Shown: piece by piece, positions 11,097 through 32,521 of the stretch
Position numbering within the stretch: the first letter of the stretch is position 1
Layout of the letters: each line of letters begins with the position of its first letter
Assembly (NCBI GenBank): GCA_035281225.1
Contig: DATEEI010000035.1
Location: 9,607 to 73,606 of the forward strand
Length of the DNA stretch: 64,000 nucleotides
Source of the DNA: Vicinamibacterales bacterium
GTDB taxonomy: Bacteria; Acidobacteriota; Vicinamibacteria; Vicinamibacterales; JAMQPK01
Direction: 5' to 3'
Notes under the pieces: model-generated
What the model saw: only the letters and a program-made list of their open reading frames with translations
Databases searched by the model: none
Told to the model about the DNA's origin: nothing
Translations under genes and position numbers: made by a program

Positions 11097-11274
11097 CGCT
11101 GCAAGTTCAAATGGTTGCGGGGGCTCGCAACCACCATTATCTGCTACTTTGGCGGCTAGCGGCTTAAGCCACTGGCGACTCCAACATCTCCACATCCTGC
11201 AGGGTTTGCGCCGTTTTCAGAGTAGGGCTCACGAACGGCAGCGAGCCTCCTTCGGCCCTGTTACCCTGTCCACG

Positions 11275-12312
11275 ATGCCATTCAAGGATTATCTCAGTTC
11301 GATTCTCGACGTATTCTCGAGGCACCGACGCATGGCCGATTCGCCTGAGCTCGCCGCCCCCACTGCATCCCCTAAAAACCACCATTTCGTCCCGCAGATG
11401 TACCTGCGCGCCTTCGCCGACCCCGCCTCGAAGCAAGGGGAGCTCTGGCGCTACGGCCCGGGTTTCAAGCCGCAGCTGAGGGCCCCCAAAGGCGTCGCCT
11501 GGCAGGACTACTTCTACGACGTCGCCGGCGAGTTGCCGCCGGAGGACAACGACATGGAGAAGTTCTACGGCGAGACGGAGACGATCGCGGCGCCTCACCT
11601 GGAGAAGCTGCGCGCCGGGAACATTAAGCTTACGCCCCAAGAGAAGAGCGAACTAGCCACGTTTATCTCGCTGCTGCGAACCCGCACGCGCTCGTACCGC
11701 GAGCAGGTGAACATGATCTTTTCGAAGATGCACGTCCAGGTGGCGAAGGAAACGCTGGAGACGAAGGGCGGCGTCGAGGATCTGATCGAGTCGAACGTCA
11801 AGCTCGGGGGCGAGCGCCTCGAGGTGGAGCAAGTGCGCTCCGCACTCCAGGCCGTCATCGACGGCAGCGTCATCGTCGAGCAGACGAGCAAAGCGTGGAC
11901 GATCAAGCAGGCGCTCGAAAGCTCCGATCAACTCGACGAGCTCATCGAATCAATGAATTGGAACCTTTTCGAGGCGCCGGATGGTTACGCGTTCATCACC
12001 TCCGACAATCCGGCGGTGATCAACGACCCGCTCGGCCGCGCGCTCGGGCCGAAGGGATATCGCCCGACGAAGATGACGCAACTCCACTTTCCGGTGAGCT
12101 CGAAGTACCTCCTGATGGGCGACTTCCTCGGGCCGAACGAGACGGTGCAGAAGGCGTCGGCTGACCGGCTGGCGAAGTACAACTACAACCAGATTGTTAG
12201 CGCGCACAAAGAGATCTACGCGTCCTTTAAATCAAACGAGCTGCAGGCGGATGTGGACCGCGTGTTCAAGGAGAAGCCGCCACTCGTCCCGGACCTGACG
12301 GCCACCCGCTGA
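11275..12312 (+). CDS. DUF4238 domain protein
   Basis: The ORF track gives 11149..12312, and an in-frame ATG lies at 11275. The motif KNHHFVPQMYLRAFA is the signature DUF4238 N-terminus (HH.VP..YLr.F). G+C looks lower than in the flanks. Confidence 0.65.
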   Translation: MPFKDYLSSILDVFSRHRRMADSPELAAPTASPKNHHFVPQMYLRAFADPASKQGELWRYGPGFKPQLRAPKGVAWQDYFYDVAGELPPEDNDMEKFYGETETIAAPHLEKLRAGNIKLTPQEKSELATFISLLRTRTRSYREQVNMIFSKMHVQVAKETLETKGGVEDLIESNVKLGGERLEVEQVRSALQAVIDGSVIVEQTSKAWTIKQALESSDQLDELIESMNWNLFEAPDGYAFITSDNPAVINDPLGRALGPKGYRPTKMTQLHFPVSSKYLLMGDFLGPNETVQKASADRLAKYNYNQIVSAHKEIYASFKSNELQADVDRVFKEKPPLVPDLTATR

Positions 12313-12341
12313 GGACGAGGCCCGTAGATCCGCCGCCCGCC

Positions 12342-13262
12342 TTAGCCCGAATCAGGCAATCGCGCGTGCAGAATGCCTCGACGCGCCTCGTCCAACAGTT
12401 CAGTCGGTGAGACCAGTTGCGCGGCCTGCACTGATCCTGACATCACGACGTGTGCGCGTAGCCGTTCGTCGCCGGTGCAGATGAGCACCGGCAGCGCTAA
12501 CGCCTGGAGCATCTCCAGGTCGAACGAGTCGCCTCGCCGCTTCAGTGCGTCCGCGTTGTAGGACATGCCACCGCCAAGGGCAAGTGCAATAAAGCGAGAG
12601 CGACTACGGATGTAAGCGTCGTTTTGCCGGCGAAGGGTTGCTTCGTCCGGGCGACCACCGAAGAACGCGTGGAACTCAAGTTCCGCGACGTGGTCTTGCG
12701 TTGGCTGATATCCGGCGAGAGCCTGCTTCATCTCGCGAATCATGCCTCGCCATCCATCGCGATGTTCCTCCGACAGCCTTGTGGCGAGGTTCTCCGAACT
12801 CGCGATCCTGTACTGAACGCCATCAGAGCCCTCAAAGGTAGGTCCCGCTTCAAGGTCGGATGGCGCGCGCGCCTGGGACAAAAAGCGCCAGATCGCGATG
12901 CCATGCTCGCGGCGAGAAATCGAAGTACGTCGTGGTGGAGCAAAGAACAGGGACTGCGATTCGTCGTCGCTTGGAAAAAGTGGGGATTCTGGGTCCAGCA
13001 ACGCCGTAACGACACCAACCCGCTCCGACCAGCGGTTCCACGCTATGCGTCCTTCAAAGAGCGCCAGCGCCAATTCGGGCACAGCGTTGTTCGCAAGGCA
13101 CACCGATATGCCTGCCTCCTTCGGAACAAGTCTGTCAAAGTCTCTATATTCGGCATCGGCATACAAGATGCCGCGAACCGCCGACGTATCGAGAAGCACA
13201 CGCAGCAGCGGCACCCGACTAGATCCCTGTTCTTGTTCTTGCGGCTCTAGGTGACGACGCAT
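12342..13262 (-). CDS. hypothetical PIN-like nuclease with a large insertion
   Basis: The ORF track gives 12342..13391, which overlaps the upstream gene by 145 nt. The internal ATG at 13262 reduces the overlap to 16 nt. RVLLDTSAV (first acidic motif) and GDSFDLEMLQALALPVLICTGDERL (distal acidic motifs) resemble a split PIN fold. Weak call. Confidence 0.45.
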   Translation of the reverse strand: MRRHLEPQEQEQGSSRVPLLRVLLDTSAVRGILYADAEYRDFDRLVPKEAGISVCLANNAVPELALALFEGRIAWNRWSERVGVVTALLDPESPLFPSDDESQSLFFAPPRRTSISRREHGIAIWRFLSQARAPSDLEAGPTFEGSDGVQYRIASSENLATRLSEEHRDGWRGMIREMKQALAGYQPTQDHVAELEFHAFFGGRPDEATLRRQNDAYIRSRSRFIALALGGGMSYNADALKRRGDSFDLEMLQALALPVLICTGDERLRAHVVMSGSVQAAQLVSPTELLDEARRGILHARLPDSG

Positions 13263-14014
13263 TGGAACCACTCGATGCCCTGCTCGGCACAGACCAACCG
13301 GTATTGGGGCGGGATGTACTGGCAACAGATTGCGACGCGAACGCGTTCCTTCGCAATACTGTTCTGCGCACAATACAGTTGCCTGTGCCACAGGATCTGT
13401 CCAACAGCTTTGGCAAGTTCGTCAGCCTGAACCTTAACCTCGACGAGCATGAGTCGCCTCTCGCTGTCCTCGAACACTAGATCGACGAAACCGATCTCGC
13501 TATCCTGTGCAACGTGGACATCTCTCCCTTTCAGGGTGAGACCGGTTTCAAGAAGGTGCGGCTTAGAAGTGACCTGATCGATCAAGAGTTTGTGGATACG
13601 GCCTTCCATCCCCTTGCCGGAACGAGTTGTCCACGGTTGGCCTCCGGCGATCTTCTCCAAGTACTCGAGAGGCTCGATCTCATTTCCCGAGATGCGGCAG
13701 GGAAACACTTCGCATAACCGCGTGCCATCGTTAACAAGCAGAACCTGCTCTGGCAGCCATGCGAATGCGGATTTGCGGCTGCCAAAACTCCGACTCAGGC
13801 CGACTTTGCGTCTGACGGCGAAATCACGTAGCCCAAGCTTCTCGAGCCAATCGCGCTGCGCCGCGTACGTGGGAAACCGCGTGTCGGCGTCCTCCGTTGC
13901 GACCTCCCATCCTTTCGACTCAAGCTCGCCGAGCAGATGGCACATCCGGTTATGCGAAGCCTGGCGATCGGGATCCGAAAGAAGCGATGGCCTGTAGAAA
14001 TAAGTGATTCTCAT
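13247..14014 (-). CDS. NucS/DUF91-like PD-(D/E)xK endonuclease domain protein with an unknown N-terminal domain
   Basis: The C-terminus reads LLETGLTLKGRDVHVAQDSEIGFVDLVFEDSERRLMLVEVKVQADELAKAVGQILWHRQLY. This matches the NucS C-terminal/DUF91 pattern (iDll..d..g.lvvvE.K ... a.gQ.l.Y). Confidence 0.6.
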   Translation of the reverse strand: MRITYFYRPSLLSDPDRQASHNRMCHLLGELESKGWEVATEDADTRFPTYAAQRDWLEKLGLRDFAVRRKVGLSRSFGSRKSAFAWLPEQVLLVNDGTRLCEVFPCRISGNEIEPLEYLEKIAGGQPWTTRSGKGMEGRIHKLLIDQVTSKPHLLETGLTLKGRDVHVAQDSEIGFVDLVFEDSERRLMLVEVKVQADELAKAVGQILWHRQLYCAQNSIAKERVRVAICCQYIPPQYRLVCAEQGIEWFQCVVT

Positions 14015-14203: not shown

Positions 14204-14941
14204 TCACACGGCCCACCACCAGTTGGATCGGTAAAGCGTTACTCCCGGTAGTTTCGTCCAGTTTCGCTGCTCCCACATGTTTCGCTTCGGGCTTCCTCCC
14301 TCTTTTGAGGACTCATTCATCCTCTCGTAAACGTCAGCGGTGATCCACGTCGCAAAGTCGCCTTCGCGCAAATTCGAGAGTTTGGCGGCGTAATTTGCAG
14401 CCCGCCCCACCCACACAAGATCGTTCGAGCCGCGGATGCCGGTTCGGGCCACAAAGATCTCGCTCAGGTCGACACCAACGGCGTGCGTCAGGTTATACGT
14501 CGAGTCCGGATACTGCTTCTTGATTGCCGGGTTGATGATGTGTCGCACTGTATAGTTGATCTGCAGCCCGCATTTGGCAGAATTCGTCCGTTTGTGGTCT
14601 CCGACAAAGACAGCCATGATTCGGTCGCCATCAAAGGCCGTGATCTCGCCATCTCGTTGGCGAACAATCTTTGACGCGCAGTGCAGGAATGCCTTATAGA
14701 CTTCGGCAGCGAACGAGTCGCTGTGCTCGTTCACAAGGGCTGTCGACTCTGCCAGATCGGCGTAGAGAACGGCGGCTTCTTCAAACTTGACCGCGTCGTT
14801 GCCGAGACCCACATCTTCGGCTTCCGGAATGACGTATCCCTTCCGTGTGTTCCACCTGGTTGCGAATATGTCTTGGACCTCTGCAGCGAGTTCTTCTTTC
14901 AGGCCCATCGGAGTCTCTTCGCTCTCCCCATACGCGACCAT
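14204..14941 (-). CDS. pycC: Pycsar-type class III nucleotide cyclase (PycC-like)
   Basis: The ORF track gives 14204..15076, which overlaps the upstream gene. In-frame ATGs lie at 14941 and 14908. Class III cyclase motifs are AAVLYADLAESTALV (metal Asp), EITAFDGDRIMAVF (second Asp) and VWVGRAANYAAKLSN (Asn/Lys). The size and single-domain layout are typical of PycC. Confidence 0.8.
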   Translation of the reverse strand: MVAYGESEETPMGLKEELAAEVQDIFATRWNTRKGYVIPEAEDVGLGNDAVKFEEAAVLYADLAESTALVNEHSDSFAAEVYKAFLHCASKIVRQRDGEITAFDGDRIMAVFVGDHKRTNSAKCGLQINYTVRHIINPAIKKQYPDSTYNLTHAVGVDLSEIFVARTGIRGSNDLVWVGRAANYAAKLSNLREGDFATWITADVYERMNESSKEGGSPKRNMWEQRNWTKLPGVTLYRSNWWWAV

Positions 14942-14975
14942 TTCGTCGAGTTGTGACTCGAGTCGATGACCATAT

Positions 14976-15512
14976 TCATATCGCCTTCCAGGCGACGTAT
15001 GTCCAACCGATGATGATGAGCCCAATACAGAACAGCAGGATCGCCACCTTGATGTTGTGGTGCTTGCGCCCCGCAATGCCTGCCGACAGGTGGATCTGAT
15101 AAATCCAGTCTTCTCGCAGATCCGCAGGACTAACGCTGTTGAGGCGTTCGCGGTAATCTGCGAGAGTCACGTCGGCGATATGACCGAAATAGGTGATGGA
15201 CTTCGGGCCTCGATCCGGGTGCTCACTTTTGGCCCAACGCCACAATCGTATCCACCACTGATCCGAAGTGCGCGGAAACAGCGCTTGGAGCGACTTCGTC
15301 AGAGCGACGATTAGGAACCCGAACCCGACCAAAAACCACAACTTGTTCTCGAACGAGTTGTGCGGATCCTCAATCCACGCGATCAGCGCCGGAATCAGCA
15401 GCGCCAGAACGCCCGCTTCAACAGCCGTAAGAATGTCGACCTTAACGTCGGCGGCACGCGTCCACTCGTGAATGCGATCGAGGATGGGTTCCAAATCTTC
15501 CGTTTCAATCAT
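14976..15512 (-). CDS. pycTM: Pycsar transmembrane effector (PycTM / DUF5706-like)
   Basis: 178 aa. The N-terminus reads RAADVKVDILTAVEAGVLALLIPALIAW. It is followed by a TM hairpin, ALFPR, SITYFGHIADVTLADYRERL and IYQIHLSAGIAGRKHHNIKVAILLFCIGLIIIGW. This matches my memory of the Pycsar effector (DUF5706) family. Confidence 0.7.
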   Translation of the reverse strand: MIETEDLEPILDRIHEWTRAADVKVDILTAVEAGVLALLIPALIAWIEDPHNSFENKLWFLVGFGFLIVALTKSLQALFPRTSDQWWIRLWRWAKSEHPDRGPKSITYFGHIADVTLADYRERLNSVSPADLREDWIYQIHLSAGIAGRKHHNIKVAILLFCIGLIIIGWTYVAWKAI

Positions 15513-15595: not shown

Positions 15596-16504
15596 TCAGT
15601 TGTTCGGGCCGAGATCGTTGATGATGTCCCTGATCCGGTTGCAGGCAGGCCCCATCGCAGCAGGCAGATCCTTCGGGTCGTACTTGTATGCGATAGCTGT
15701 GATGCCGCTGAGGTCCGACGGCAACTTCACCTCTTCGCCGCGCGGCTCCAGTAACAGCGACCGGTGCCGTCCAAGCCGTCCCATGAAGAATCCGAGCTCG
15801 AAAATGACGTTGTCGCGGGGCGTGGGCTTCGCCTCACCGCGGCTCTCCGTCAGGTCGTCGGGTTGCGCGATGGCGATCGCGAAGTCCGACTGGTCAAGTT
15901 CGCGTTCAAGGCTTTCCACTGGATAGCAGGACGCCCGAAAAACGCCGTCGGTCCAGATGACGACTGTGAATGGATCGTATTCGAATGCATTCTGAACGCC
16001 CCGTGCGATCGGCAGAGCCTCCACGGACGAGATGATAAACACGCGGATCTTCTCGCGCCGCGTTGTGATGAGCAAATTGCGCTGCATGAGGCGGCGCGCC
16101 AGTTCTTTTGCGATGGCCCGGTAGATATTTGGGTATTTCTGTCCAAGGGCCGACAGCTGCGGTTCGGTGAGTTTTAGTACAACCGAGGGTTCCGCCGCGA
16201 CGACCGTGGCGGAACGGCGCTGCGAGGGCTGAATGGCGGCCATCTCGCCGACACAATCGGTCGGACCCCGCATCGCGACCTTCTTGCCATTCACGAGAAT
16301 CGTGAATGAACCGGCGAGGATCAGAAAGCAGTCTGTATCCTGGCCGTTCTGGTCGATTATTGGGGTATCCGGCACGATCTCGCGGAGCTCGCCGACGGCG
16401 GCCATCTCCTCGGCCAGCGCTTCGTTGCCGCCTACAATCTTCTGCTCTTTGAGCACGTCGACCAGGACGCGGCGTCCGTGCTCACCCTCGAATCGATCCT
16501 TCAT
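15596..16504 (-). CDS. cyclic-nucleotide-binding domain fused to a TIR-like (CAP12/PycTIR-type) effector domain
   Basis: The ORF track gives 15596..16582. ATG at 16504 is preceded by GGAGGAG. The cNMP phosphate-binding cassette reads CVGEMAAIQPSQRRSATVVAAEP. The C-terminal half reads IRVFIISSVEALPIARGV ... NVIFELGFFMGRLGRHRSLLL ... KLPSDLSGI, which fits the TIR-like nucleotide-binding domain family. Confidence 0.8.
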   Translation of the reverse strand: MKDRFEGEHGRRVLVDVLKEQKIVGGNEALAEEMAAVGELREIVPDTPIIDQNGQDTDCFLILAGSFTILVNGKKVAMRGPTDCVGEMAAIQPSQRRSATVVAAEPSVVLKLTEPQLSALGQKYPNIYRAIAKELARRLMQRNLLITTRREKIRVFIISSVEALPIARGVQNAFEYDPFTVVIWTDGVFRASCYPVESLERELDQSDFAIAIAQPDDLTESRGEAKPTPRDNVIFELGFFMGRLGRHRSLLLEPRGEEVKLPSDLSGITAIAYKYDPKDLPAAMGPACNRIRDIINDLGPNN

Positions 16505-16557
16505 CGCCCAATCTCCTCCAGCCGCCACGGAGTTCGATGCTTTCGTCGTGAAGTGGC

Positions 16558-17094
16558 TTAGCTCTTTGTCGAACGCGACCACTCGCTCATATATCGAAGT
16601 AGCTTACGCAGGCCGCGAACTCCAGAGTGTTCGTGCTCGTAGTGGATCGCTACGGTTACTGGCAGTGCATTGGGAGTAAAAGCCATCGCCGAGACATCGA
16701 TCCTCCTGCCTGCGGTAAGCGTCGCGATAAGCAGTATGAGGAAGTTGGCGCCCACCTTCGGATCCTCAACGAGGGACTGCATGGTCGCGATGTCGACCGC
16801 GCTTGGCAACGGCTCGAACGTCGGATGCGAATGCCACTCACCGAGATAGTTAAAGCGCGTGAAGTCCTGGCCCGTGCGAGCAAAGAACGATCTGAGCTGC
16901 ACGTCATGGTTCGCTGGATCACGTACGAACTGTGTGTGCGACCCACCGGATCGCTGCACTGACACGTCGACGACGCGAAACACTCCCTCGCGGACATGCT
17001 CACCCATCATGAGTCCGCCGATCTCCTGCGCCCCCGCTCGCTTGAGTTCCCGACGAATTCGCTGGAGGATTCGAGCCGGCAGGAGAAGCTGCAT
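16558..17094 (-). CDS. cap3: JAB/JAMM metalloprotease (Cap3-like)
   Basis: The catalytic Glu context is AQEIGGLMMGEHV. A perfect JAMM motif follows: HSHPTFEPLPSAVD (H-x-H-x7-S-x2-D). Confidence 0.8.
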   Translation of the reverse strand: MQLLLPARILQRIRRELKRAGAQEIGGLMMGEHVREGVFRVVDVSVQRSGGSHTQFVRDPANHDVQLRSFFARTGQDFTRFNYLGEWHSHPTFEPLPSAVDIATMQSLVEDPKVGANFLILLIATLTAGRRIDVSAMAFTPNALPVTVAIHYEHEHSGVRGLRKLLRYMSEWSRSTKS

Positions 17095-18781
17095 TCTGGT
17101 AGTCCGTTAGCAACTGGATAACGGTCGCGATCTCCGCTGCCGCTTCCGGGGAATCGGTGCCCGCGTCTGTGCGCTGCGGCTGGCCGACGTCGATTGGATA
17201 CGTATCGAATGGCGCCTCGAAAATCCAGCCTTTAGAGAGACCGATCAGGTAAACAGAATTCGGGAACATTGACGGTGTCCGTGCGAGAAGCGTGTCGATT
17301 GCCAGCCGTGCTGCATGTGCTGCGAGCACCGTGACATCCGCATCATCGGCAATCAGAGGTGCTTCTTCGGCGCCGCCGTAGTCATTCGCTGCGCGAGCGA
17401 TCGGCTTGCCCCGGTCAGCGCACCAGGCTTCAATCATGCGGCGCATCGACGCCGGATCAGGTTCGTGATCGGGCCGGTGGCGAGCTACCAGACCACCAAA
17501 GCCGCCGCCGAAGACCTCCGCCCAGACCAACGCCCTCTTACCGAGAGCCACTGCGGCACAAAGGTAGTTGAAGGCAACCGGGTTTGCGGTTGCATCCACG
17601 ATGAGATCGCATCCCGCGAGACTTTCGATCAGCGTCTCGACGCTTCCACTTGCTTCCTGGCCACCGAGGCGGTGCCGGCGCCGTTCGCAGCTCGCTCCCG
17701 GGTTAACCAGCTGAATTCGACGTGCTACGCTGTCGGCTTTGTGAGTTCCGATTTCGCGCCAATCCAAATCATGGCGCACGAGATTGTCGGGCAACATCAT
17801 GTCGTCATCGACCAAGAGGAACTTCTTCGCTCCTGAACGAGCCAACATCACCGCGATCTTGCTGCCGATTGAGCCGCACCCGATGACCGCAACTTTTCCT
17901 TCCGCCAAGGCCGCATGATCCGGGTCGAGTCGAGGCGACGTGGGCGGAAGCACGATCACGGCTGGCTGCCAGACCTGAGCATCTTCGTCGCCAAGACCGT
18001 AAGCGTGTATCTGCGATCCCTGCAGCAGCAACACATGCGAGACGTTCGGAATCGACAAGCCGCGTTCGCGTGCTCCCGCTCGAAACTCAGCTGACGTCTT
18101 CACCGACAGTCGCCGGACGCCTTCCGGCCACCTGAAGATTGCGATCTCCCGCTCCCACCCTTCAGCGCGGAAAGGCTCTGGCATTTCATGCTCGACCCAC
18201 GTCTCGCCGCTCGGCATCGCAATGGAACTAATGGCGTTGACCCATGACTCTTCGTGCAATGCGCCCACAGCTTTGGCCGAGACGACGACGTCGTCGTCGA
18301 CCCTCGCTAACGCCTCGGCCGCACCACGCGTGATCACGAACCGCGTAAACCTGTTTCGCAGGTCCTGTCCGAGAGTGGTCTTGTGACGAGACGGGACGAG
18401 AGCCGCTTCGCCGGTGATACTCTCGCTGCTCAGCAGTCGATAGGCGCTGAGGATCATGTCGGCGCCGGTAATCTCCGGATGCCAATTGTCCGGGCCATAT
18501 TCGAGACACAATTCACCGCCCGGTCCGTACTGGTGCGACGACCAATGCTCCGAGTCACCGCGTGGAAGGACCACAGGTGGTGAGTGCGGAAAGTGATTGG
18601 GGTACCGCAATGACACGGGATAAGTACGCTCGTGCGTCGAAAGATCAATGTCCCAGATGAGACGCAGCGATTCGTCGACCCTGAGCCCGAGCGGCGTCAT
18701 CCACGTAACCTGTGACGCGAGCGTTTCGATCGCTTCCCGTTCGCGTTTGCTGCGCGCGGGATTGTCGAAATACCAGATCAT
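17000..18781 (-). CDS. cap2: E2-like + E1 (ThiF)-like fusion protein (Cap2-like)
   Basis: The N-terminal prokaryotic E2-like region reads YPNHFPHSPPVVLPRGDSEHWSSHQYGPGGELCLEYGPDNWHP. The central ThiF/E1 Rossmann fold reads KVAVIGCGSIGSKIAVMLARSGAKKFLLVDDDMMLPDNLVRHDL ... CDLIVDATANPVAFNYLC. Its ATG overlaps the cyclase stop (ATGA at 18778-18781). Confidence 0.8.
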   Translation of the reverse strand: MIWYFDNPARSKREREAIETLASQVTWMTPLGLRVDESLRLIWDIDLSTHERTYPVSLRYPNHFPHSPPVVLPRGDSEHWSSHQYGPGGELCLEYGPDNWHPEITGADMILSAYRLLSSESITGEAALVPSRHKTTLGQDLRNRFTRFVITRGAAEALARVDDDVVVSAKAVGALHEESWVNAISSIAMPSGETWVEHEMPEPFRAEGWEREIAIFRWPEGVRRLSVKTSAEFRAGARERGLSIPNVSHVLLLQGSQIHAYGLGDEDAQVWQPAVIVLPPTSPRLDPDHAALAEGKVAVIGCGSIGSKIAVMLARSGAKKFLLVDDDMMLPDNLVRHDLDWREIGTHKADSVARRIQLVNPGASCERRRHRLGGQEASGSVETLIESLAGCDLIVDATANPVAFNYLCAAVALGKRALVWAEVFGGGFGGLVARHRPDHEPDPASMRRMIEAWCADRGKPIARAANDYGGAEEAPLIADDADVTVLAAHAARLAIDTLLARTPSMFPNSVYLIGLSKGWIFEAPFDTYPIDVGQPQRTDAGTDSPEAAAEIATVIQLLTDYQNAASPAGSNPPANSSGTQASGGAGDRRTHDG

Positions 18782-20334
18782 GCAAACCCATCCGGTTTCG
18801 CGGGACCTGCCGGTCGACTCGGGAAGGTGAAAGACGAAGGCGCAGGCGTTGCCGGTTTCAGCGACCCGGCCGCGGCCATCGCCCGAGCGGCTTTAGCAGT
18901 GGCGTCATTCTTGTCGGCCAACTCTCTGACCGCGATGTCGTAAGTCAGCCCCGATCGCTTCCGCGATTTCCCGAACACCGCGCGCACTGCATCGTTACCG
19001 CTGTCGTACGCGATGGACCCAATCGCCGTTTCCGTGCCGGCGCAGCGCGACTGCTCGCGTTCGGCGGCAACAACGCCGCGGCTAGCCGAACAGCGTACCA
19101 ACTCGCCCTTGATGCCAAGGCGCGTTACGTTCATCGGTCCGTACTCGAATCCGATGGCCAGGCCAAGACTGCTAGCGTCGGTGCCATTCGCCTTGAGCTT
19201 CGAGATGGCGAGCTCAAAGCTGCTGCGCATGCCGCCGGCGCACAGCGTCTGGTTGCTGATGGTCTCGATCTCGTCCGACGTCTGCGCTGTGCCCTCTACA
19301 AGGAGCCCATGAACGCAGTCGCCGATAAACCGCACTTTCCGGCCGGCGAAGTCGGTGTGAAGCACAGCGTCCAGTTCACTGCGCAGCACATGCAACGCGC
19401 GCACGACGTGTTTAGCGGTGGCGTCAGTTGTGATGTTCTTGGTCACGTAGGCGGTGAAGCCGTCGACATCGGCATAGACCGTAGCCGCATCCTGACGTCG
19501 CGTGTTCTTCACCGACAGCTCTTCGATGTCGAGCGTGCTGAAGGGCGGCGTATGCCCGCTGAAGCCAAAGGCGCCGATAGGACTATTCTTGAGATCGTCC
19601 TTCCATTCCTTCACAATCTCGTCGGCCGTGACATCCAAGGCCGCCTTGTCTTGTGACTTCGAGATCTCCTGGGCGGTGAGCGGCGTGGTGTCTTCGTTGT
19701 CGACGCGCTTCAGACCGAGCGTCTCGCGGGCTTTGTTCGTCAGATAGATTCCCGTCGCCGCCCCTCCCGATGCGCGCTTCGCGGCTTGATTCGCTGGCTC
19801 TCCAAGGAACAGGGGTTCCCGATGGCCTCGGCGTCCGTTGTTCACGGCGAGGGCTTCACCGGTGTCGATCCCCACTCTGACCTTCGCGGCAGGATGGTCG
19901 GCGTCCTCGCCGGTCTGCGCGAGCACGTCGATGATCAGCTGCGCCACGGCGACGGCCTTGTGAATGCGGTCGATCTCCGAGTCATACGGCTTCGCGATCA
20001 CCGAGTGCAGACGCTGATTGTGAAAGTCGACAAAGATGGCGTCCACCCGCTGAAGGGTCCGATGGACGGCTCGGTAATGCAGGTTGAGGAATCGGAGCGT
20101 CCGCCGGTGGCAAGTCTCGCCTTCCACCTCGGTGACGTGAAGCATGTCCGCTAGGTTGAGAATGTCGGCGTAGAGGTGGACGCCGTGGAGGCGGTACGCG
20201 ATGTTCCGAGGCAGGCTGGTCAGGTCCGTCTCGCGCACGAACTTCTTGATCACGATGTCGCCGATCGGAAGGTCAGCGATGCAGGCATCGATGCGCTTCG
20301 CGGCTCGGTCTTTGTCCCAGGTACGTGTAGCCAC
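18778..20334 (-). CDS. tandem class III nucleotide cyclase (two cyclase-homology domains in one chain, PycC-related)
   Basis: The ORF track gives 18778..20415 with a TTG start and no SD. GTG at 20334 is preceded by GGAGGAAGAAGAC and is the more plausible start. Domain 1 motifs are HLYADILNLADM and RVGIDTGEALAVNNGRRGHREPLFLGEPANQAAKRAS. Domain 2 motifs are ATVYADVDGFTAYV, VRFIGDCVHGLL and GLAIGFEYGPMNVTRLG. Confidence 0.75.
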   Translation of the reverse strand: MATRTWDKDRAAKRIDACIADLPIGDIVIKKFVRETDLTSLPRNIAYRLHGVHLYADILNLADMLHVTEVEGETCHRRTLRFLNLHYRAVHRTLQRVDAIFVDFHNQRLHSVIAKPYDSEIDRIHKAVAVAQLIIDVLAQTGEDADHPAAKVRVGIDTGEALAVNNGRRGHREPLFLGEPANQAAKRASGGAATGIYLTNKARETLGLKRVDNEDTTPLTAQEISKSQDKAALDVTADEIVKEWKDDLKNSPIGAFGFSGHTPPFSTLDIEELSVKNTRRQDAATVYADVDGFTAYVTKNITTDATAKHVVRALHVLRSELDAVLHTDFAGRKVRFIGDCVHGLLVEGTAQTSDEIETISNQTLCAGGMRSSFELAISKLKANGTDASSLGLAIGFEYGPMNVTRLGIKGELVRCSASRGVVAAEREQSRCAGTETAIGSIAYDSGNDAVRAVFGKSRKRSGLTYDIAVRELADKNDATAKAARAMAAAGSLKPATPAPSSFTFPSRPAGPAKPDGFA

Positions 20335-20523
20335 GTCTTCTTCCTCCAGGTAGTTCACCCTGCTCGGCTGTGCTTCGGGAGGTAAATCCTGCGGAAGCGG
20401 GCGGAACCGGCTCAATGCACGGTTGACCGATGGTGCCGATGAGCGTACTCTTAAATGGGCCTAGTTTCTAGGACCAGTATAGTTAATATACCCATTCTGG
20501 CAGTGCTCAGCAAGGGGGTTTTT
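20335..20523. promoter_or_regulatory. divergent promoter/operator region between the cyclase operon and the WYL regulator
   Basis: This is a locally AT-rich patch in a GC-rich window. It contains a perfect palindrome CCTAG-TTT-CTAGG (20460..20472) and an inverted repeat GTATA-GTTAA-TATAC (20477..20491). Confidence 0.45.
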
Positions 20524-21465
20524 TTGGACAATGATCGTCGGCGTCGAGGGCCTGAGCAGCGCCTTGAATTCATCGAGTTCCGACTGTATTGGGAAGGGGC
20601 GGTAAACCGGAGCGACCTCGTTGAGCGGTTCGGCGTGTCTGTGCCCCAAGCGTCAAATGACCTGACGGCGTATCGGCAGCTAGTACCCGAGAACGTGGCC
20701 TACGATTTGAGCGGGAAGCGATACGTCCCTGCCACGACCTTCCGCCCGAAGTTCCTGAAGCCGAATCCAGACCGATACCTCGCCCAGTTGAAAGCCATGT
20801 CCGACGGAATCCTCGACGTCACCGATACATGGCTCGCCAGTCAGCCTGACACCGGCGTCTTGCCGATCCCGAACCGACGCACAGACCCGTCAGTGTTGCG
20901 GGCTGTGCTGATGGCCGTCCGAGCAAAGGGCAGCGTCCACGTGGAATACCAATCAACCAGTCCTGAGAATCCGGACCCGATTTGGCGGTGGATCACTCCG
21001 CACGCATTTGGGTTCGATGGACTGCGGTGGCACGTCCGTGCGTTCTGTCATCGTGACAATCGCTTCAAGGACTTCATTCTCGGCCGCTGTCTCGCCGTCG
21101 GCGAGCAAGGTCCCGCCGCCGCAGTGGCCGAAAAGGATTGGCAGTGGCAAACGTTCTTTGAAGTCGTTCTGCAGCCTAACCCAGATCTGGCGGACGGTCA
21201 GCGCCGAGCGGTTGCTCTCGACTACAACATGATCGAGGGGAGGATCGCAGTCCCCGTACGCTTTGCTCTGTTGTACTACTTCAACAAGCGCCTACGCCTG
21301 GATGTCGCCGAGCGGTTTGACAAGCCACGCGAGCGCCCAGTCGTCGTGGCAAACCAGGCGGACTTTGAAGCCGCACTGCAAAAGGCAGACGCCCCGTTAT
21401 CCACGTCAGAGAGAGTCGCGCAGCAAGCTGAAGGTGCCACGGCTTCTAGCCACTTGAGTCCGTGA
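20524..21465 (+). CDS. WYL-domain transcriptional regulator (CapW/BrxR-like)
   Basis: The ORF track start is ATG 20455, but the first 23 codons are AT-rich rare codons spanning the palindromes. TTG at 20524 follows AAGGGGG. The N-terminal wHTH reads RLEFIEFRLYWEGAVNRSDLVERFGVSVPQASNDLTAYRQL. The WYL-like core reads SVHVEYQSTSPENPDPIWRWITPHAFGFDGLRWHVRAFCHRDNRFKDFILGRC. Confidence 0.8.
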   Translation: MDNDRRRRGPEQRLEFIEFRLYWEGAVNRSDLVERFGVSVPQASNDLTAYRQLVPENVAYDLSGKRYVPATTFRPKFLKPNPDRYLAQLKAMSDGILDVTDTWLASQPDTGVLPIPNRRTDPSVLRAVLMAVRAKGSVHVEYQSTSPENPDPIWRWITPHAFGFDGLRWHVRAFCHRDNRFKDFILGRCLAVGEQGPAAAVAEKDWQWQTFFEVVLQPNPDLADGQRRAVALDYNMIEGRIAVPVRFALLYYFNKRLRLDVAERFDKPRERPVVVANQADFEAALQKADAPLSTSERVAQQAEGATASSHLSP

Positions 21466-21561: not shown

Positions 21562-21987
21562 TTACGACGAGCCAGCGTCCTCGAGCATGAGCTGTCGGTT
21601 CACGGTGGCAACGAAGTCGTAGAGTTCTCCAGAGCGGACGACCTCCGCTCCAAGCGCCAGTTTTCCTTGCGCAGCACGAATCACCGTTTTCATCGTCGCG
21701 TCGAAACCGATAACGATCCACCACTCCTGACCGTCAACCTCCGTAGACCAGGCTGTGTTCACGAACTTTCCCTTATCAGTCCGGACCTCGGCGGTCATCA
21801 GACGCCAACGATCTGGATCGAAGTTCTGAAGTTGTTCGAGAGGAGCGCCACGTTCATAGCTGCGGTCTTGAACATGGCGAGCGTGGGTCTTCAACACTCG
21901 CACGTCCCGCATTTTGAAGCGAACCCGCTCAAAGAGTTCTGGTGGGCCGGTCAATGTGTGGAAACGAGCAACATGAAACTTCGGCAT
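21562..21987 (-). CDS. small hypothetical protein (possibly DUF4258/RelE-fold-like), the last gene of the large defence operon
   Basis: The ORF track gives 21562..22041. ATG at 21987 shares 1 nt with the PLD stop (TGATG). The segment THARHVQDRSYERGAPLEQLQNF loosely resembles DUF4258. Weak family call. Confidence 0.4.
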   Translation of the reverse strand: MPKFHVARFHTLTGPPELFERVRFKMRDVRVLKTHARHVQDRSYERGAPLEQLQNFDPDRWRLMTAEVRTDKGKFVNTAWSTEVDGQEWWIVIGFDATMKTVIRAAQGKLALGAEVVRSGELYDFVATVNRQLMLEDAGSS

Positions 21988-24566
21988 CAAGCTCCGACGA
22001 CTCGCTGAGAAGCGGCGTCCATGGTGACCCACTCGACGCACTTGACATGAGTCGTGAGGAATTGGCGTTCCTCGTCTTCAACCTCAGCGTCGAAGACTGT
22101 GATCTTGTCCGAGGCGCCAGAAGGGACGACTTCGAGAGCGATGCGAACACGTGGATCGAGCGCCGAGCCGAGGATGACGAGGTCACCGGGACGGGGCGCG
22201 CGACCGGACTTCCGGACCGCCTCCGGGGTCTTCTCGACATCGGCCAAAAAATCTGCCAGGCGAAGATGACTCGCGACCCAGGAGTTGCCGTCAGCATCTC
22301 TTCGCGCTGTCCGACCGACGGCCTGGCTGAGGGTATCGCGCGCTTCTAGGTCGCCAGCTAGCTGACCGGCGATCGCGGCAAACACCTGAATCGGGTACCA
22401 CGGGCTGTCCTCCTCCTCCAGGTCGATTGGGCTAGTCCGGTTGACCGCGGCCCTAACGTTGATCTCCATTTCCCACGCTAACCACGCTAGCAATCCAATC
22501 GCGAGGGATAGTTCCTGGAATGGCTCGCCATCCCCCTCCTTTAGCGATCTTGGCGCTAACGATGAACCGCCCCAAGTGAGCGCCAACCCGCCAGCTTCGA
22601 ACAGCACCCACTCATCATTTGGGTCCACGAGCGTCAGATGCTTCGAGCGCCACTCCGTCCGCTGCTCCATGGTACGAAGGGTGTGCACGACGCTGAGGAC
22701 TGCGGCAAGCTGCACGACTGCACGCCGAGCGACACCATCGCGCGCTGCATCGAGCTGTTTCACCATTCGCCTAATCAGCCGACCGACCTTACCGCGGCAC
22801 AAATCCGCCAAGACTTCGTACGGAGGGGGAGGCGGTGGAGGCTCCTCATCTCCGGCGTCGTCGTCGGTGACGGGCAGCACTTCTTCAGCTGGTGGACGCG
22901 GCGGCGCCGGCGCCAACAGGCCCTCGCCGAGCCGGCACATCAAGGCATCCAACAGAACGAGGATGTCGCCGCTGGCCAACCGTTTCTTCTTCCGACCGGA
23001 GCGTCGGCCAGCCGCGTCCACGGCGAGCGACTCTGGGCCGGGTTCATGGGTCTCTGCACGGTTGGTCTCCGTCTTTCGACGGATGGCAGGTTCGGGAGTG
23101 ACTACGTCGTCCGAGTCGAAGATTACCTTCTGTGTCAGCTTCAGGAGCGCGTCGAGCTGTGCAGGATCCTCGTCGAGTGCTCCGAGGAGTTGTCGCAATT
23201 CACGCTGCCGGTCACCGCCAACGTTCCTGGCAACTTCATCAGGTCGATGGACCAGCACCACCACCCGTTTCTTTCCGGGACCGAACCCACGCAAGGTCTG
23301 TGCGGCGTCGCGTACGGCATCCGCTGCGTCGATGGCCAATTCGTTACCCGTGCGCGTGAGTGCTTGGCCCAGGTTGCTGCCATCTGCAGCGAAGGCATCG
23401 AGCACGATTCGCGGGCCTATCGGTCGCTCGAGTGCAAAGCCGTCGTCTGAGGGGACGGCAAGCACTACCGTCCCGCGGCCGTCCGACTTCTCCTCGACGA
23501 GGTCGGCCTGCCTATCTGCGACTTTGGTCCATTCCTTCGCTCCAACACTCGGTGCAGCCACGAACGCGTCAATGCCGAGTGCCTTCGCGGCTCCTTCGCG
23601 ACGATCGACAACCACAGCTTCGGCGTTTCTGAAGTGGTCCACCGGCAAAAAAGCCGCTTGCGAGGGATTTGCACTACCGGTCACGAGGAGCTCACCTTCA
23701 GAGCCCTCGAACCAAAGAACCTTCGCGTGCAGATACGTCGTGGCGGACTCTCGGCGATTGGGCACGCGCGGGAGTCCCGCAACGTTTACGAATTCGGCAC
23801 CACGGAACTTTCGAACCGACGCAGGGTCGATCTCGACTGACTCTGGGTCGATTCCGACGACAAGCCTGCGCGGCTTCACATCATCAAGGAGCTGTTGCAG
23901 AAATCCGAGCTTCTTGTCGAAGTACGGCCCGCACACGAAGGCTGTCGATGGTCGCTTGGGAACCATGGGCCTAATTCGTGACCACAGATCCGCATCATCA
24001 CCGGTTGTTGTCAGAAGGATTCGTTCGGTCGATTCAACGGCCATCGGACCGTCAAGCCATGGAATGTTCCGTCCGACGGAAGCGAACACCTGGTCCATGT
24101 CGGTGAGCCCGGTCGGCACGAATGTCCGCAGGTAGTCCAGCGCTGCGCGAATGACCGCGGCCCCTTGGCGGGCTCCCGCTCCACTGGTTCTGAACTCATT
24201 CGTGATCTCGTCGTTCAATCCAAAGCCTGCAAGTGTCGTGTTATGGCTGCCGACGAACAACGCACCTTTCGATTTTCCGAGAGCGACGATGAGTTTCGGA
24301 TGAAACGCTCCGCGGAGATGAACCGGAACCAGCGTGTAGTCGCGGCCGGCGCGCTTAGGTCGCGTGTCGTCGCACGCGAAAGCCTCAGCACACAGAGCGG
24401 CGTCGACAAGCAAGATGTTGTTGGTGCAACCCCGGTCCAGCAGACGACGAAGTACGACCTCCTCGTAGAAAGGAAAGTAGCAGCAGTACGTGGCTATTAT
24501 CGAAGCCTGAAAGCCGGTCTCGGAAAGTGCTTCGAGCAATGAGAACGACGCTGCCTCACGAGGCAC
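21987..24566 (-). CDS. PLD-family (two HKD motifs) nuclease-like protein with a long uncharacterised C-terminal region
   Basis: HKD-1 reads FHPKLIVALGKSKGALFVGSHNTTLAG and HKD-2 reads YLHAKVLWFEGSEGELLVTGSANPSQAAF. An acidic poly-Pro linker DDDAGDEEPPPPPPPYEVL follows. The remaining ~350 aa is unrecognised. Confidence 0.8.
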   Translation of the reverse strand: MPREAASFSLLEALSETGFQASIIATYCCYFPFYEEVVLRRLLDRGCTNNILLVDAALCAEAFACDDTRPKRAGRDYTLVPVHLRGAFHPKLIVALGKSKGALFVGSHNTTLAGFGLNDEITNEFRTSGAGARQGAAVIRAALDYLRTFVPTGLTDMDQVFASVGRNIPWLDGPMAVESTERILLTTTGDDADLWSRIRPMVPKRPSTAFVCGPYFDKKLGFLQQLLDDVKPRRLVVGIDPESVEIDPASVRKFRGAEFVNVAGLPRVPNRRESATTYLHAKVLWFEGSEGELLVTGSANPSQAAFLPVDHFRNAEAVVVDRREGAAKALGIDAFVAAPSVGAKEWTKVADRQADLVEEKSDGRGTVVLAVPSDDGFALERPIGPRIVLDAFAADGSNLGQALTRTGNELAIDAADAVRDAAQTLRGFGPGKKRVVVLVHRPDEVARNVGGDRQRELRQLLGALDEDPAQLDALLKLTQKVIFDSDDVVTPEPAIRRKTETNRAETHEPGPESLAVDAAGRRSGRKKKRLASGDILVLLDALMCRLGEGLLAPAPPRPPAEEVLPVTDDDAGDEEPPPPPPPYEVLADLCRGKVGRLIRRMVKQLDAARDGVARRAVVQLAAVLSVVHTLRTMEQRTEWRSKHLTLVDPNDEWVLFEAGGLALTWGGSSLAPRSLKEGDGEPFQELSLAIGLLAWLAWEMEINVRAAVNRTSPIDLEEEDSPWYPIQVFAAIAGQLAGDLEARDTLSQAVGRTARRDADGNSWVASHLRLADFLADVEKTPEAVRKSGRAPRPGDLVILGSALDPRVRIALEVVPSGASDKITVFDAEVEDEERQFLTTHVKCVEWVTMDAASQRVVGA

Positions 24567-26196
24567 GACATGCCTCCAGCTCCTTCCGCCCGTTACTCGT
24601 CAGGATCGGCCATGCGTCAGCGTCGAGGTCTGTCAGGTCGAGGTCACGCAGAATCTGAAATGCTTTACCGAGTCGAGGGACTGTCGCGGCGGGGGGCGGT
24701 ACTTCGACGACACGAAGTTCTTGTTCCAGTGGACGGATCCTGAACGTGTCGCGGCGCTCCCCTCGAAGCTTGCGAAGAGCCACGCTCAGGTGACGCTGAA
24801 TTCCCCAATGCACAGACAACCATCGAACCCATTGCTCGACCGTCATGTCCGCCCACGTGGATTGCCACGCCTGCTTGAACGAGAGCAGGTGGACTTCCCT
24901 GGGGTCGAAGTAGTCAGGCTCGAACTCGAACTCCGCGTACGGATTTTCGTCAAGGCCTCTAGCGAGCAACGACAGCAGGATCTGGATCCCTTCCTCGACC
25001 TGTACCTCAAGCGCAGTTTCGTCAGCGTGCGTCTCGAGAATCTTCCAACCGCGCTGGATCTCGTGACCGTCGTTCTGCCACGCGCTGATGTCAGGCAAGC
25101 CCGACGCAAGGTCCGAGACGACGTCCGCGAGACGGCGTTTACGAAACCGGCCAGACGAGGGGAGGAGATTTACGCAGATATCACCTGCCGCCGCGGCGGT
25201 CGGCAGTCTCCCCGAGTGGTCGCGCTCTATCGCGCGAAGAACGGCAGCAAACAGGGCTTGCAATGCGAGAGAGAGCAGTTCGTTCTGTTCGTAAATCGCC
25301 CAACCGCCTTGAACGCGGAGAAATGATGAGGGCACATCCCACGGCTTGCCGTCGGGAAGTGCCCTACTGTATGTCGCTGCGCGGAAGACACTCTCCAAGC
25401 TGTAGCCCTCAAGCCGACTACAGCGGTCGACGAGGTCCAAGGCCAATGCGAGGGTTACGCGGCGGTTCGTTGACTCCGCCGACTGGTACGCTTCCGATCT
25501 AACGAGAAAGAGATCGAGAAGCAGCGTGCGCTCCACCTGACGGTTGCGTAAGCTGCACGGACAGAACTCAGCGAGGCCATCAAGCTCGGACCAGCGGATC
25601 TTCGGCCTCTCCAGTAGCCGGAAGAACTCATCCTCAGGCATTCCCGTCGCAAATGCCTCGGCTAGGGCGCTACCCCGCACTTTGTCATAGCCCGGGATTG
25701 CTCCGTCTTTCTCGGACGTGTAATCGAGGACCCGAAGATCGCGTAACGCACCGAAGTAGTACTGACCCAGGCCTCCAGCTGGATTCTTGAAGTACCGACT
25801 GGAACCCTCTAAATCTGCATGGTCGTCCAGTCTGATCGCGTCGGAGTCTTCTGCGATTCTAAGCAGGCTCTGTCTGCCAACCATTCCAAGACCATGGCGT
25901 CCAGCGTCACGATCGTTCAGCACTCGAGCATGACGAATTGCTATCAGGGCGAACAAACACTCCGCCCGGCGCAGAACGCGACGGAACTCTTCGATGGAGT
26001 GGTCTCGATAACGTTGTTCAAACGACCGAATCAGCCAAGGATTAAAGCTGTAATACCGCGCGCGGTCGGTAACGTTAGTGATGCCCGGAACCAGCTGGGA
26101 GTACAAGGCGATGCACGGCGCCTGCACGCCGAGGTGATCAAGTCCCCTAATGGGCTTCGCGGGCTCTACCCAGCCGAGGTCGGTCGGTCGACTCAT
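24556..26196 (-). CDS. hypothetical protein (546 aa), operon component of unknown function
   Basis: Clean ATG start with balanced composition. The N-terminal motif GLDHLGVQAPCIALYSQLVPGITNVTDRARYYSFNPW is reminiscent of uncharacterised families linked to DNA-modification systems, but I cannot name one with confidence. The gene overlaps the PLD gene by 11 nt. Confidence 0.55.
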   Translation of the reverse strand: MSRPTDLGWVEPAKPIRGLDHLGVQAPCIALYSQLVPGITNVTDRARYYSFNPWLIRSFEQRYRDHSIEEFRRVLRRAECLFALIAIRHARVLNDRDAGRHGLGMVGRQSLLRIAEDSDAIRLDDHADLEGSSRYFKNPAGGLGQYYFGALRDLRVLDYTSEKDGAIPGYDKVRGSALAEAFATGMPEDEFFRLLERPKIRWSELDGLAEFCPCSLRNRQVERTLLLDLFLVRSEAYQSAESTNRRVTLALALDLVDRCSRLEGYSLESVFRAATYSRALPDGKPWDVPSSFLRVQGGWAIYEQNELLSLALQALFAAVLRAIERDHSGRLPTAAAAGDICVNLLPSSGRFRKRRLADVVSDLASGLPDISAWQNDGHEIQRGWKILETHADETALEVQVEEGIQILLSLLARGLDENPYAEFEFEPDYFDPREVHLLSFKQAWQSTWADMTVEQWVRWLSVHWGIQRHLSVALRKLRGERRDTFRIRPLEQELRVVEVPPPAATVPRLGKAFQILRDLDLTDLDADAWPILTSNGRKELEACRAS

Positions 26197-29562: not shown

Positions 29563-29565
29563 TAG

Positions 29566-32460
<2,895 letters not shown>

Positions 32461-32521
32461 GATCAATGAGCCGGGCGTCCGTTCCGTCGAAGCAGCTTGT
32501 GGCTTACTGTCGACTCTGGCG

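What the first reader, a model, noticed from the sequence alone, without database searches (positions are those of the whole stretch)
18778..20415. Tandem cyclase looks like an intramolecular pseudo-heterodimer with complementary degenerate half-sites
Domain 2 keeps both canonical metal-binding Asp contexts (VYADVDGFT and FIGDCVHGLL). It appears to lack the Asn/Arg transition-state motif, with SRGVVAAEREQS in that position. Domain 1 keeps the Asn motif (GEPANQAAKRAS, close to the neighbouring PycC motif GRAANYAAKLSN). It has a degenerate second metal site (DFHNQRLHSVI instead of xxGDxxxxxF) and YADILNLA instead of D.xGFT. This complementary division mirrors the C1/C2 arrangement of eukaryotic adenylyl cyclases, which form one active site and one regulatory pseudo-site. 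Known PycC enzymes are single-domain homodimers.
Basis: inference. Interest (0 to 1): 0.7.

Follow-up and report, generated by a model that had tools for sequence, protein, structure and literature searches.

The report
Known two-domain Pycsar cyclase (clade A)

Summary
All six quoted motifs are in the ORF 18778-20415 (-). The true start is probably the GTG at 20334, giving 518 aa.

Both halves are class III cyclase folds. Domain 2 carries the two metal-binding Asp residues (D316, D366). Domain 1 carries the Asn/Lys pair (N209, K213). These four are invariant or nearly invariant in 65 homologues of 25-78% identity, while the reciprocal positions are degenerate across the family.

The pseudo-heterodimer reading therefore holds. 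The claim that known PycC enzymes are single-domain homodimers is wrong. Clade A PycC enzymes are reported to have two consecutive cyclase domains. P. aeruginosa PaPycC has a crystal structure (6YII), and my model matches it at TM 0.96 and 56% identity. A full-length PADLOC PycC model hits at E = 6e-215.

The gene heads a "Type II Pycsar" operon: PycC, an E2-E1 fusion (Cap2-like), a JAB peptidase (Cap3-like) and PycTIR.

- Its disordered tail ends in Gly-Phe-Ala.
- That ending tracks the E2-E1 gene in 57 of 58 related loci.
- It is absent from 20 loci that carry an E2-only gene instead.

Verdict: a new member of a known kind, of low interest.

The parts
18778..20334 (-). Tandem (clade A type) PycC cyclase gene, 518 aa from the probable GTG start. 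The ORF as listed extends to a TTG at 20415.
   Evidence: PADLOC PycC PDLC00762 E = 5.9e-215 over the full length. PDB 6YII E = 3.2e-174. Homologues are 518 aa and start MATRTW. GGAGGA lies upstream of the GTG.
19720..20253 (-). Cyclase domain 1 (aa ~55-232 of the 545-aa ORF). It is C2-like: it supplies the transition-state Asn209 (19789-19791) and Lys213 (19777-19779). Its metal site is degenerate: D84 (20164-20166) is kept here, but the second Asp is Q134 (20014-20016).
   Evidence: Pfam PF00211 23.1 bits, profile positions 69-156. A208-N209 are 65/65 and K213 is 60/65 in the family. D84 is Asp in 25/65 and position 134 is variable. Register from hhalign.
19585..19674 (-). Helical linker between the two cyclase domains (aa ~248-277).
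   Evidence: Secondary structure of the AF2 model, helices 221-231 and 237-250 in 518-aa numbering.
18952..19506 (-). Cyclase domain 2 (aa ~304-488). It is C1-like: it supplies both metal-binding Asp residues, D316 (19468-19470) and D366 (19318-19320). The Asn position is V449 (19069-19071). The Lys/Arg position is R453 (19057-19059) here but is not conserved.
   Evidence: Pfam PF00211 23.2 bits, profile positions 3-119. D316 and G365-D366 are 65/65. Position 449 is variable and mostly hydrophobic. Position 453 is variable. This part aligns to the C1 domains of AC8 and AC5.
18781..18867 (-). Disordered C-terminal tail ending ...KPDGFA. It is the candidate site for E2-E1 (Cap2-like) conjugation.
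   Evidence: pLDDT below 50 for the last ~25 residues. The tail is conserved in close homologues. A G-F/Y-A/S ending is present in 57/58 loci with a downstream E2-E1 gene and in 0/20 loci with an E2-only gene.
17000..18781 (-). E2-E1 fusion protein (Cap2-like). Its start overlaps the PycC stop by 4 nt.
   Evidence: PADLOC E1-E2 PDLC00855 E = 1.3e-200. Pfam ThiF 2e-21 plus a weak UQ_con hit. PDB Cap2 7TO3/7TSQ match the E1 region and UBC9 matches aa 53-122.
16558..17094 (-). JAB/JAMM isopeptidase (Cap3-like).
   Evidence: Pfam Prok-JAB 6.7e-14. PADLOC JAB 8e-61. NCBIfam Cap3 2.9e-09, below the cut-off. An HSHP...S..D motif is visible in the translation.
15596..16582 (-). PycTIR effector: a cyclic-nucleotide-binding domain plus a TIR NADase domain.
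   Evidence: Pfam cNMP_binding 3.3e-12 and CAP12-PCTIR_TIR 2.1e-34. PDB NpPycTIR 8JSJ 2.8e-48. The uracil-recognising Arg/Asn pair is kept as R164/N169.
20455..21465 (+). Divergently transcribed BrxR-type WYL regulator, possibly controlling the operon.
   Evidence: Pfam WYL 4.8e-06. Precomputed WHD_BrxR and BrxR_CTD hits. WYL association is reported for this cyclase subclade.

Best explanation
The gene encodes a clade A (two-domain) Pycsar cyclase. The two class III cyclase domains of one chain pack head-to-tail into an intramolecular pseudo-heterodimer.

Only one of the two interface pockets is catalytic. It combines the two metal-binding Asp residues of the C-terminal domain (D316, D366) with the transition-state Asn/Lys of the N-terminal domain (N209, K213). 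The symmetry-related pocket has lost the second Asp (Q134) and the Asn (V449).

By homology to PaPycC, and from the uracil-type receptor encoded downstream, the product is most likely 3',5'-cUMP. On phage infection, cUMP would activate the PycTIR NADase, deplete NAD+ and abort the infection (inferred).

The operon is of the 'Type II Pycsar' kind. The E2-E1 fusion probably conjugates the cyclase to a target through its flexible Gly-Phe-Ala C-terminus, which would prime it. The JAB peptidase would reverse or process this. That step is inferred by analogy with Type II CBASS.
For: **Family membership.** PADLOC PycC E = 5.9e-215 over the full length. PDB 6YII, which is PaPycC, hits at E = 3.2e-174.

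**Fold.** The AF2 model has pLDDT 92.6 and pTM 0.90. Foldseek places it on 6YII at TM 0.96 and rmsd 1.6 A. The next hits are single-chain C1-C2 cyclases.

**Two homologous domains.** hhalign gives 99.55%, E = 2.4e-23, with register D84/D316, Q134/D366, N209/V449 and K213/R453.

**Conservation in 65 homologues of 25-78% identity.**
- D316 65/65
- G365-D366 65/65
- A208-N209 65/65
- K213 60/65
- The reciprocal positions are variable.

**Pfam.** The model recognises only the Asp-bearing part of domain 2 and the Asn-bearing part of domain 1.

**Literature.**
- Clade A PycC has two cyclase domains, and clades A-D make cUMP.
- P. aeruginosa PycC produces only cUMP.
- 'Type II Pycsar' uses a fused E2-E1 protein.

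**Receptor.** PycTIR matches cUMP-binding NpPycTIR at 2.8e-48 and keeps the uracil-specifying Arg/Asn pair.

**Tail and E2-E1 co-occurrence.**
Against: - No biochemical data exist for this protein.
- I could not read the model coordinates, so I did not measure the proximity of D316/D366 to N209/K213. It is inferred from the fold match to 6YII and to C1-C2 cyclases.
- A 2026 preprint predicts, from AlphaFold3 ligand confidence, that the E2-associated 'Pycsar-like-4' subclade prefers ATP. 6YII was deposited as an 'ATP-binding protein'. The product could therefore be questioned.
- The window's PycTIR could equally answer to the neighbouring single-domain PycC.
- Conjugation through the GFA tail rests on co-occurrence and analogy only.
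Confidence: 0.8

Rival explanations
1. Both halves are catalytically competent, so the protein is simply a fused homodimer with two active sites.
For: In this particular protein, domain 1 still has Asp at the first metal position (D84) and domain 2 has Arg at the Lys/Arg position (R453).
Against: The second metal Asp is Gln (Q134) and the transition-state Asn is Val (V449). All four positions of this second site vary freely in the family: D84 is Asp in 25/65, and positions 134, 449 and 453 have no consensus. All four positions of the other site are invariant or nearly so.
Confidence: 0.03
2. The protein is a nucleotide-binding (ATP-binding) sensor or an adenylate cyclase rather than a uridylate cyclase. 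The degenerate pocket or the main pocket binds ATP, and the signal is not cUMP.
For: The closest solved structure was deposited as a 'Class III adenylyl cyclase-like ATP-binding protein'. A 2026 preprint reports an AlphaFold3-based ATP preference for the E2-associated Pycsar-like-4 subclade. In two of the closest related loci (L001, L002) the PycTIR has Ser, as CRP does at its adenine-recognising position, instead of the uracil-specifying Asn.
Against: Papers citing Tal et al. 2021 state that P. aeruginosa PycC (clade A) produces only cUMP and that clades A-D convert UTP to cUMP. The metal and transition-state residues are invariant, which is not expected of a non-enzyme. The window's PycTIR keeps the uracil-recognising Arg/Asn pair, and Asn is present in 65 of 68 related loci.
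Confidence: 0.12
3. The two domains pair between chains, as a domain-swapped dimer of tandem proteins, giving two composite sites per dimer rather than an intramolecular pseudo-dimer.
For: Class III cyclase domains dimerise generically. One PycC (AnPycC) is reported to run as a monomer in solution yet to form a dimer in the crystal.
Against: The single-chain AF2 model is confident as a compact two-domain unit (pTM 0.90). It superposes on the single chain of 6YII at TM 0.96, and on single-chain C1-C2 cyclases over both domains.
Confidence: 0.05

Closest known systems
PaPycC, clade A Pycsar uridylate cyclase of Pseudomonas aeruginosa (PDB 6YII)
   Same: Same length class and the same two-domain architecture. 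The sequence match has E = 3.2e-174 over aa 30-519. The model superposes at TM 0.96 and rmsd 1.6 A with 56% identity. The quoted motifs are shared, for example YADI.NL, VDFH.QRLHS, LFLG.PAN.AAK, YADIDGFTAY and VRFIGDCV. Both are paired with a PycTIR effector.
   Different: I did not determine PaPycC's operon context or C-terminal tail. The window protein carries the GFA tail and an E2-E1/JAB pair. Its organism is an uncultured soil-type bacterium: the closest loci are Acidobacteria and delta-proteobacterial MAGs.
Single-domain PycC cyclases (clades B-E), e.g. BcPycC 7R65 and the neighbouring gene at 14204-15076
   Same: Same class III fold and the same PycC-type motif ...LVW/LFLG..AN.AAK with Lys in place of the canonical Arg. 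Same defence role.
   Different: These are homodimers with two symmetric, complete sites. Each chain has both Asp residues and the Asn. They have no GFA tail.
Mammalian membrane adenylyl cyclases (C1/C2) and soluble adenylyl cyclase ADCY10
   Same: Two homologous class III domains in one chain form a pseudo-heterodimer with one catalytic pocket and one degenerate pocket. After 6YII these are the best whole-chain structural matches, at TMq about 0.5-0.56.
   Different: The domain order is reversed: here the metal-binding domain is C-terminal. Sequence identity is only 10-16%. The substrate is a pyrimidine. It is not known whether the degenerate pocket binds a regulator, as the forskolin and bicarbonate sites do.
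Type II CBASS (CD-NTase with Cap2 E2-E1 and Cap3 JAB)
   Same: Same accessory pair: PADLOC E1-E2 E = 1.3e-200 and JAB 8e-61. The signalling enzyme is directly upstream with an overlapping stop and start. It has a flexible C-terminal tail ending in a small residue.
   Different: The signalling enzyme is a class III cyclase, not a CD-NTase. The literature already names this arrangement 'Type II Pycsar' or 'Pycsar-like-4'.

Membership tests
Class III nucleotidyl cyclase catalytic domain (Pfam PF00211), two copies | Each half independently matches the family model or fold. | tested here: met
   Each half alone scores 23.1 and 23.2 bits against a gathering score of 21.9. The halves align to each other at 99.55%. 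Foldseek hits include many class III cyclases.
Class III nucleotidyl cyclase catalytic domain (Pfam PF00211), two copies | A complete catalytic set: two metal Asp residues plus a transition-state Asn and Arg/Lys, forming at least one site across a dimer interface. | tested here: met
   D316 and D366 (domain 2) and N209 and K213 (domain 1) are present and conserved at 65/65, 65/65, 65/65 and 60/65. Their spatial proximity was not measured. It is inferred from the fold match to 6YII and to C1-C2 cyclases.
Clade A PycC (two-domain Pycsar cyclase) | Two consecutive nucleotide cyclase domains in one polypeptide (PMC11224242, citing Tal 2021). | tested here: met
Clade A PycC (two-domain Pycsar cyclase) | Close full-length homology to the clade's reference member, PaPycC (6YII). 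| tested here: met
   E = 3.2e-174 over aa 30-519. TM 0.96 with 56% identity. The full-length PADLOC PycC model hits at 5.9e-215. I did not build a phylogeny against clades B-E.
Clade A PycC (two-domain Pycsar cyclase) | Makes 3',5'-cUMP from UTP. | not testable with these tools
   Inferred from the literature on PaPycC and from the uracil-type PycTIR. A computational prediction of ATP preference for this subclade exists.
Pycsar defence system | The cyclase gene is adjacent to a cyclic-nucleotide-sensing effector (PycTIR or PycTM). | tested here: met
   PycTIR lies at 15596-16582 in the same operon. In the related loci PycTIR is found in 63 of 80.
Pycsar defence system | Protects against phage. 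| not testable with these tools
   Not tested. The setting is a defence island, with an Hma system, a second Pycsar and a BrxR-type regulator nearby.
Type II Pycsar (E2-E1/JAB-assisted) | A fused E2-E1 protein and a JAB peptidase are encoded with the cyclase. | tested here: met
   The arrangement is conserved in 58 of the 78 related loci that hold sequence downstream of the cyclase.
Type II Pycsar (E2-E1/JAB-assisted) | The cyclase C-terminus is conjugated to a target by the E2-E1 protein. | tested here: inconclusive
   Only indirect evidence: a disordered tail, and a G-F/Y-A/S ending in 57/58 loci with E2-E1 and 0/20 loci with E2-only. There is no biochemical test.

The most novel reading that the evidence does not exclude
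The 'dead' pocket may not be mere decay. It may be a conserved ligand-binding or regulatory site, for example for ATP. Residues on the degenerate metal side of domain 1 are as conserved as catalytic residues: Y82 64/65, R135 62/65, H137 65/65.

The fusion into one chain may also exist so that each catalytic unit has exactly one C-terminal tail for E2-mediated conjugation. Every one of the 78 related loci with downstream sequence has an E2-family gene directly after the tandem cyclase.

Either idea would link the pseudo-heterodimer design to how the cyclase is kept off until infection.
Probability: 0.2. Interest if true: 0.45.

Novelty: new member of a known kind. Interest (0 to 1): 0.15.

Why it matters
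It matters little as a discovery. The two-domain design, its crystal structure and its link to E2/E1/JAB genes are all in the literature, and standard defence-system models annotate this gene.

The work does give a clean, family-wide residue map. It shows which half supplies which catalytic residues, and that the order is reversed relative to mammalian C1/C2.

It also gives a sharp comparative signal: the Gly-Phe-Ala tail tracks the E2-E1 gene. That could guide experiments on how Type II Pycsar cyclases are primed.

Tried and rejected
- **First AlphaFold run.** Using 36 close homologues (at least 74% identical) gave a poor model (pLDDT 52.8), which I discarded. A 65-sequence diverse alignment fixed this.
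- **The search for related loci with the diverse alignment.** I reran it with the close alignment.
- **Papers I could not read.** The Linder et al. 2020 paper on 6YII, Tal et al. 2021 and Ledvina et al. 2023 are not held. What I say about them comes from papers that cite them or from the PDB title.
- **Model coordinates.** They are not exposed to scripts, so I could not measure inter-residue distances in the composite site.
- **Complete second site.** I considered it and rejected it on conservation.
- **Non-cyclase half.** I considered that one half might not be a cyclase and rejected it.
- **NCBIfam.** It has no model for the cyclase.
Full report
**What is there**

Thirty-five homologues of 74-90% identity are almost all 518 aa and start MATRTW. 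In the window a GTG at codon 28 is preceded by GGAGGA, so the gene most likely runs 18778-20334. I keep the 545-aa numbering below so that positions can be compared with the finding.

**Is it a tandem cyclase?**

Yes, on five lines of evidence.
- The whole protein matches PADLOC's 508-position PycC model PDLC00762 end to end, at E = 5.9e-215. It also matches two further long PycC models.
- Pfam PF00211 is found in two stretches.
- Each half scanned alone just passes the gathering score, at 23.1 and 23.2 bits against 21.9.
- Profiles of the two halves, cut from a 65-sequence family alignment, match each other at 99.55% probability, E = 2.4e-23, over 188 columns at 15% identity.
- An AlphaFold2 model built on that alignment is confident (pLDDT 92.6, pTM 0.90). 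It shows two alpha/beta domains joined by a helical linker, with a disordered tail.

**How the catalytic residues are divided**

The profile-profile register pairs D84 with D316, Q134 with D366, N209 with V449 and K213 with R453.

I aligned 65 full-length homologues of 25-78% identity. They were drawn from 465 cluster representatives. Conservation is as follows.
- Domain 2, metal Asp residues: D316 65/65, G365-D366 65/65.
- Domain 1, transition-state pair: A208-N209 65/65, K213 60/65.
- Reciprocal positions: D84 is Asp in only 25/65, and positions 134, 449 and 453 have no consensus.

Pfam independently sees only the Asp-bearing part of domain 2 (profile positions 3-119) and only the Asn-bearing part of domain 1 (profile positions 69-156). 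Domain 2's N-terminal part aligns to the C1 domains of AC8 and AC5. Domain 1's C-terminal part aligns to sGC beta-1 and to BcPycC.

Three refinements apply.
- In this protein the first Asp of domain 1 (D84) and the Arg of domain 2 (R453) survive. The second site still lacks its second Asp and its Asn.
- PycC enzymes use Lys, not Arg, four residues after the Asn.
- The order is reversed relative to mammalian cyclases: the C1-like domain is C-terminal.

**Is it new?**

No.
- The best PDB sequence hit is 6YII chain A (514 aa), at E = 3.2e-174 over residues 30-519.
- Foldseek places the model on 6YII at TM 0.96, rmsd 1.6 A and 56% identity. The entry is titled 'Class III adenylyl cyclase-like ATP-binding protein from Pseudomonas aeruginosa' and was released in 2020.
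- PMC11224242 identifies 6YII as PaPycC, a clade A PycC. Citing Tal et al. [quoted passage not shown]
- PMC12489823 states that P. aeruginosa PycC produces only cUMP.

After 6YII, the best whole-chain structural matches are single-chain C1-C2 cyclases: the AC9 catalytic core and human soluble AC, at TMq about 0.5-0.56. This fits the pseudo-heterodimer fold.

**Operon and mechanism**

On the same strand, directly downstream, lie three genes.
- An E2-E1 fusion at 17000-18781. PADLOC E1-E2 gives 1.3e-200, Pfam gives ThiF plus a weak UBC hit, and the PDB gives Cap2 and UBC9 hits. Its start overlaps the cyclase stop by 4 nt.
- A JAB peptidase at 16558-17094.
- PycTIR at 15596-16582, with a cNMP-binding domain and a TIR domain. 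It matches NpPycTIR 8JSJ at E = 2.8e-48.

The literature calls this arrangement 'Type II Pycsar'. A 2026 preprint describes an E2/E1/JAB/WYL-associated 'Pycsar-like-4' subclade. A BrxR-type WYL gene sits divergently at 20455-21465.

PsPycTIR recognises uracil through R138 and N143. The window's PycTIR has the equivalent R164 and N169, and 56 of 68 PycTIR genes in related loci keep both. This supports cUMP as the signal.

The same preprint predicts an ATP preference for this subclade from AlphaFold3 ligand confidence, and 6YII was deposited as an ATP-binding protein. I therefore keep a 12% rival in which the nucleotide is not UTP/cUMP.

**Comparative genomics**

A scan of one genome per species returned 170 relatives, of which 80 loci were kept. 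They come from Acidobacteriota and from Alpha-, Beta- and Gammaproteobacteria.
- 58 loci have the E2-E1 gene directly after the cyclase, usually followed by JAB and PycTIR.
- In 57 of those 58 the cyclase ends in G-F/Y-A/S: GFA 52, GFS 4, GYA 1.
- The 20 loci without E2-E1 that extend far enough all carry an E2-only gene in that position (PADLOC E2 3.3e-94). Their cyclases end differently (...RPY...), and none ends in GFA.
- The tail is disordered in the model.

This is good indirect evidence that the tail is the conjugation handle, as in Type II CBASS. It is co-occurrence only. The loci were also selected through two conserved peptides, so the sample is not unbiased.

**Left unexplained**

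Y82 (64/65), R135 (62/65) and H137 (65/65) sit in the 'dead' metal region of domain 1, yet they are as conserved as catalytic residues. By register, Y82 and R135 correspond to BcPycC Y50 and R97, which PMC11224242 lists among the UTP-recognition residues. They may therefore serve base recognition in the live site, or line a conserved pseudo-site. I could not decide between these, because the model coordinates are not readable.

**Verdict**

This is a new member of a known, structurally characterised family in a known operon type. Interest is 0.15.

Noticed in passing
window 14204-15512 (-): A second, two-gene Pycsar system lies immediately downstream. It comprises PycTM (14976-15512, Pfam PycTM 3.5e-13) and a single-domain PycC (14204-15076, probably starting at Met57). 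The PycC matches the cUMP synthase BcPycC 7R65 at E = 2.3e-57. About 25 of the 80 related loci also have a single-domain PycC near the tandem one.
   Followed up: partly
window 26215-41282 (-): An Hma defence system: HmaA helicase 37677-41282, HmaB methylase 29566-32466 and HmaC ATPase 26215-29562, all with E = 0 in PADLOC. Two extra genes lie between HmaA and HmaB: a 1387-aa TmtA-like protein (33514-37677, E = 7.5e-59) and a 331-aa protein (32522-33517) with a weak RT_III-A hit.
   Followed up: partly
window 21987-26196 (-): An 859-aa protein with a faint PLD hit and a ZacB-like hit (PADLOC 9.8e-17), followed by a 546-aa protein with no defence-model hit. They lie between the WYL regulator and the Hma system and may be another defence module.
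   Followed up: no
window 20455-21465 (+): A BrxR-type WYL regulator (WHD_BrxR, WYL, BrxR_CTD) is transcribed divergently from the tandem cyclase operon, with about 120 bp between the probable starts.
   Followed up: partly
L052 7536-8324 and 19 other loci (L036, L051, L056, L060-L065, L067, L069-L072, L074-L078): A sister group of tandem PycC genes lacks E2-E1 and JAB. Instead it has a ~260-aa E2-only gene between the cyclase and PycTIR (PADLOC E2 3.3e-94). These cyclases lack the GFA tail and end in a conserved ...RPY... motif.
   Followed up: partly
L001 9980-10567; L002 9907-10809: Two of the closest relatives (90% identical cyclase) carry a divergent PycTIR, 40-43% identical. It has Ser where other PycTIR proteins have the uracil-specifying Asn. 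CRP uses Ser at the same position for adenine. This hints at a possible change of signal or receptor specificity.
   Followed up: no
window 20005-20172 (-), residues Y82, R135, H137: Residues in the degenerate metal-binding region of domain 1 are conserved in 62-65 of 65 homologues. Their role is undetermined: base recognition in the live site, or a conserved pseudo-site.
   Followed up: partly
window 11149-14014: A NucS_C-like endonuclease domain protein (13247-14014, Pfam 5.8e-07) and a DUF4238-type protein (11149-12312, PADLOC 8.8e-17) flank the Pycsar genes. Both fit a defence-island setting.
   Followed up: no
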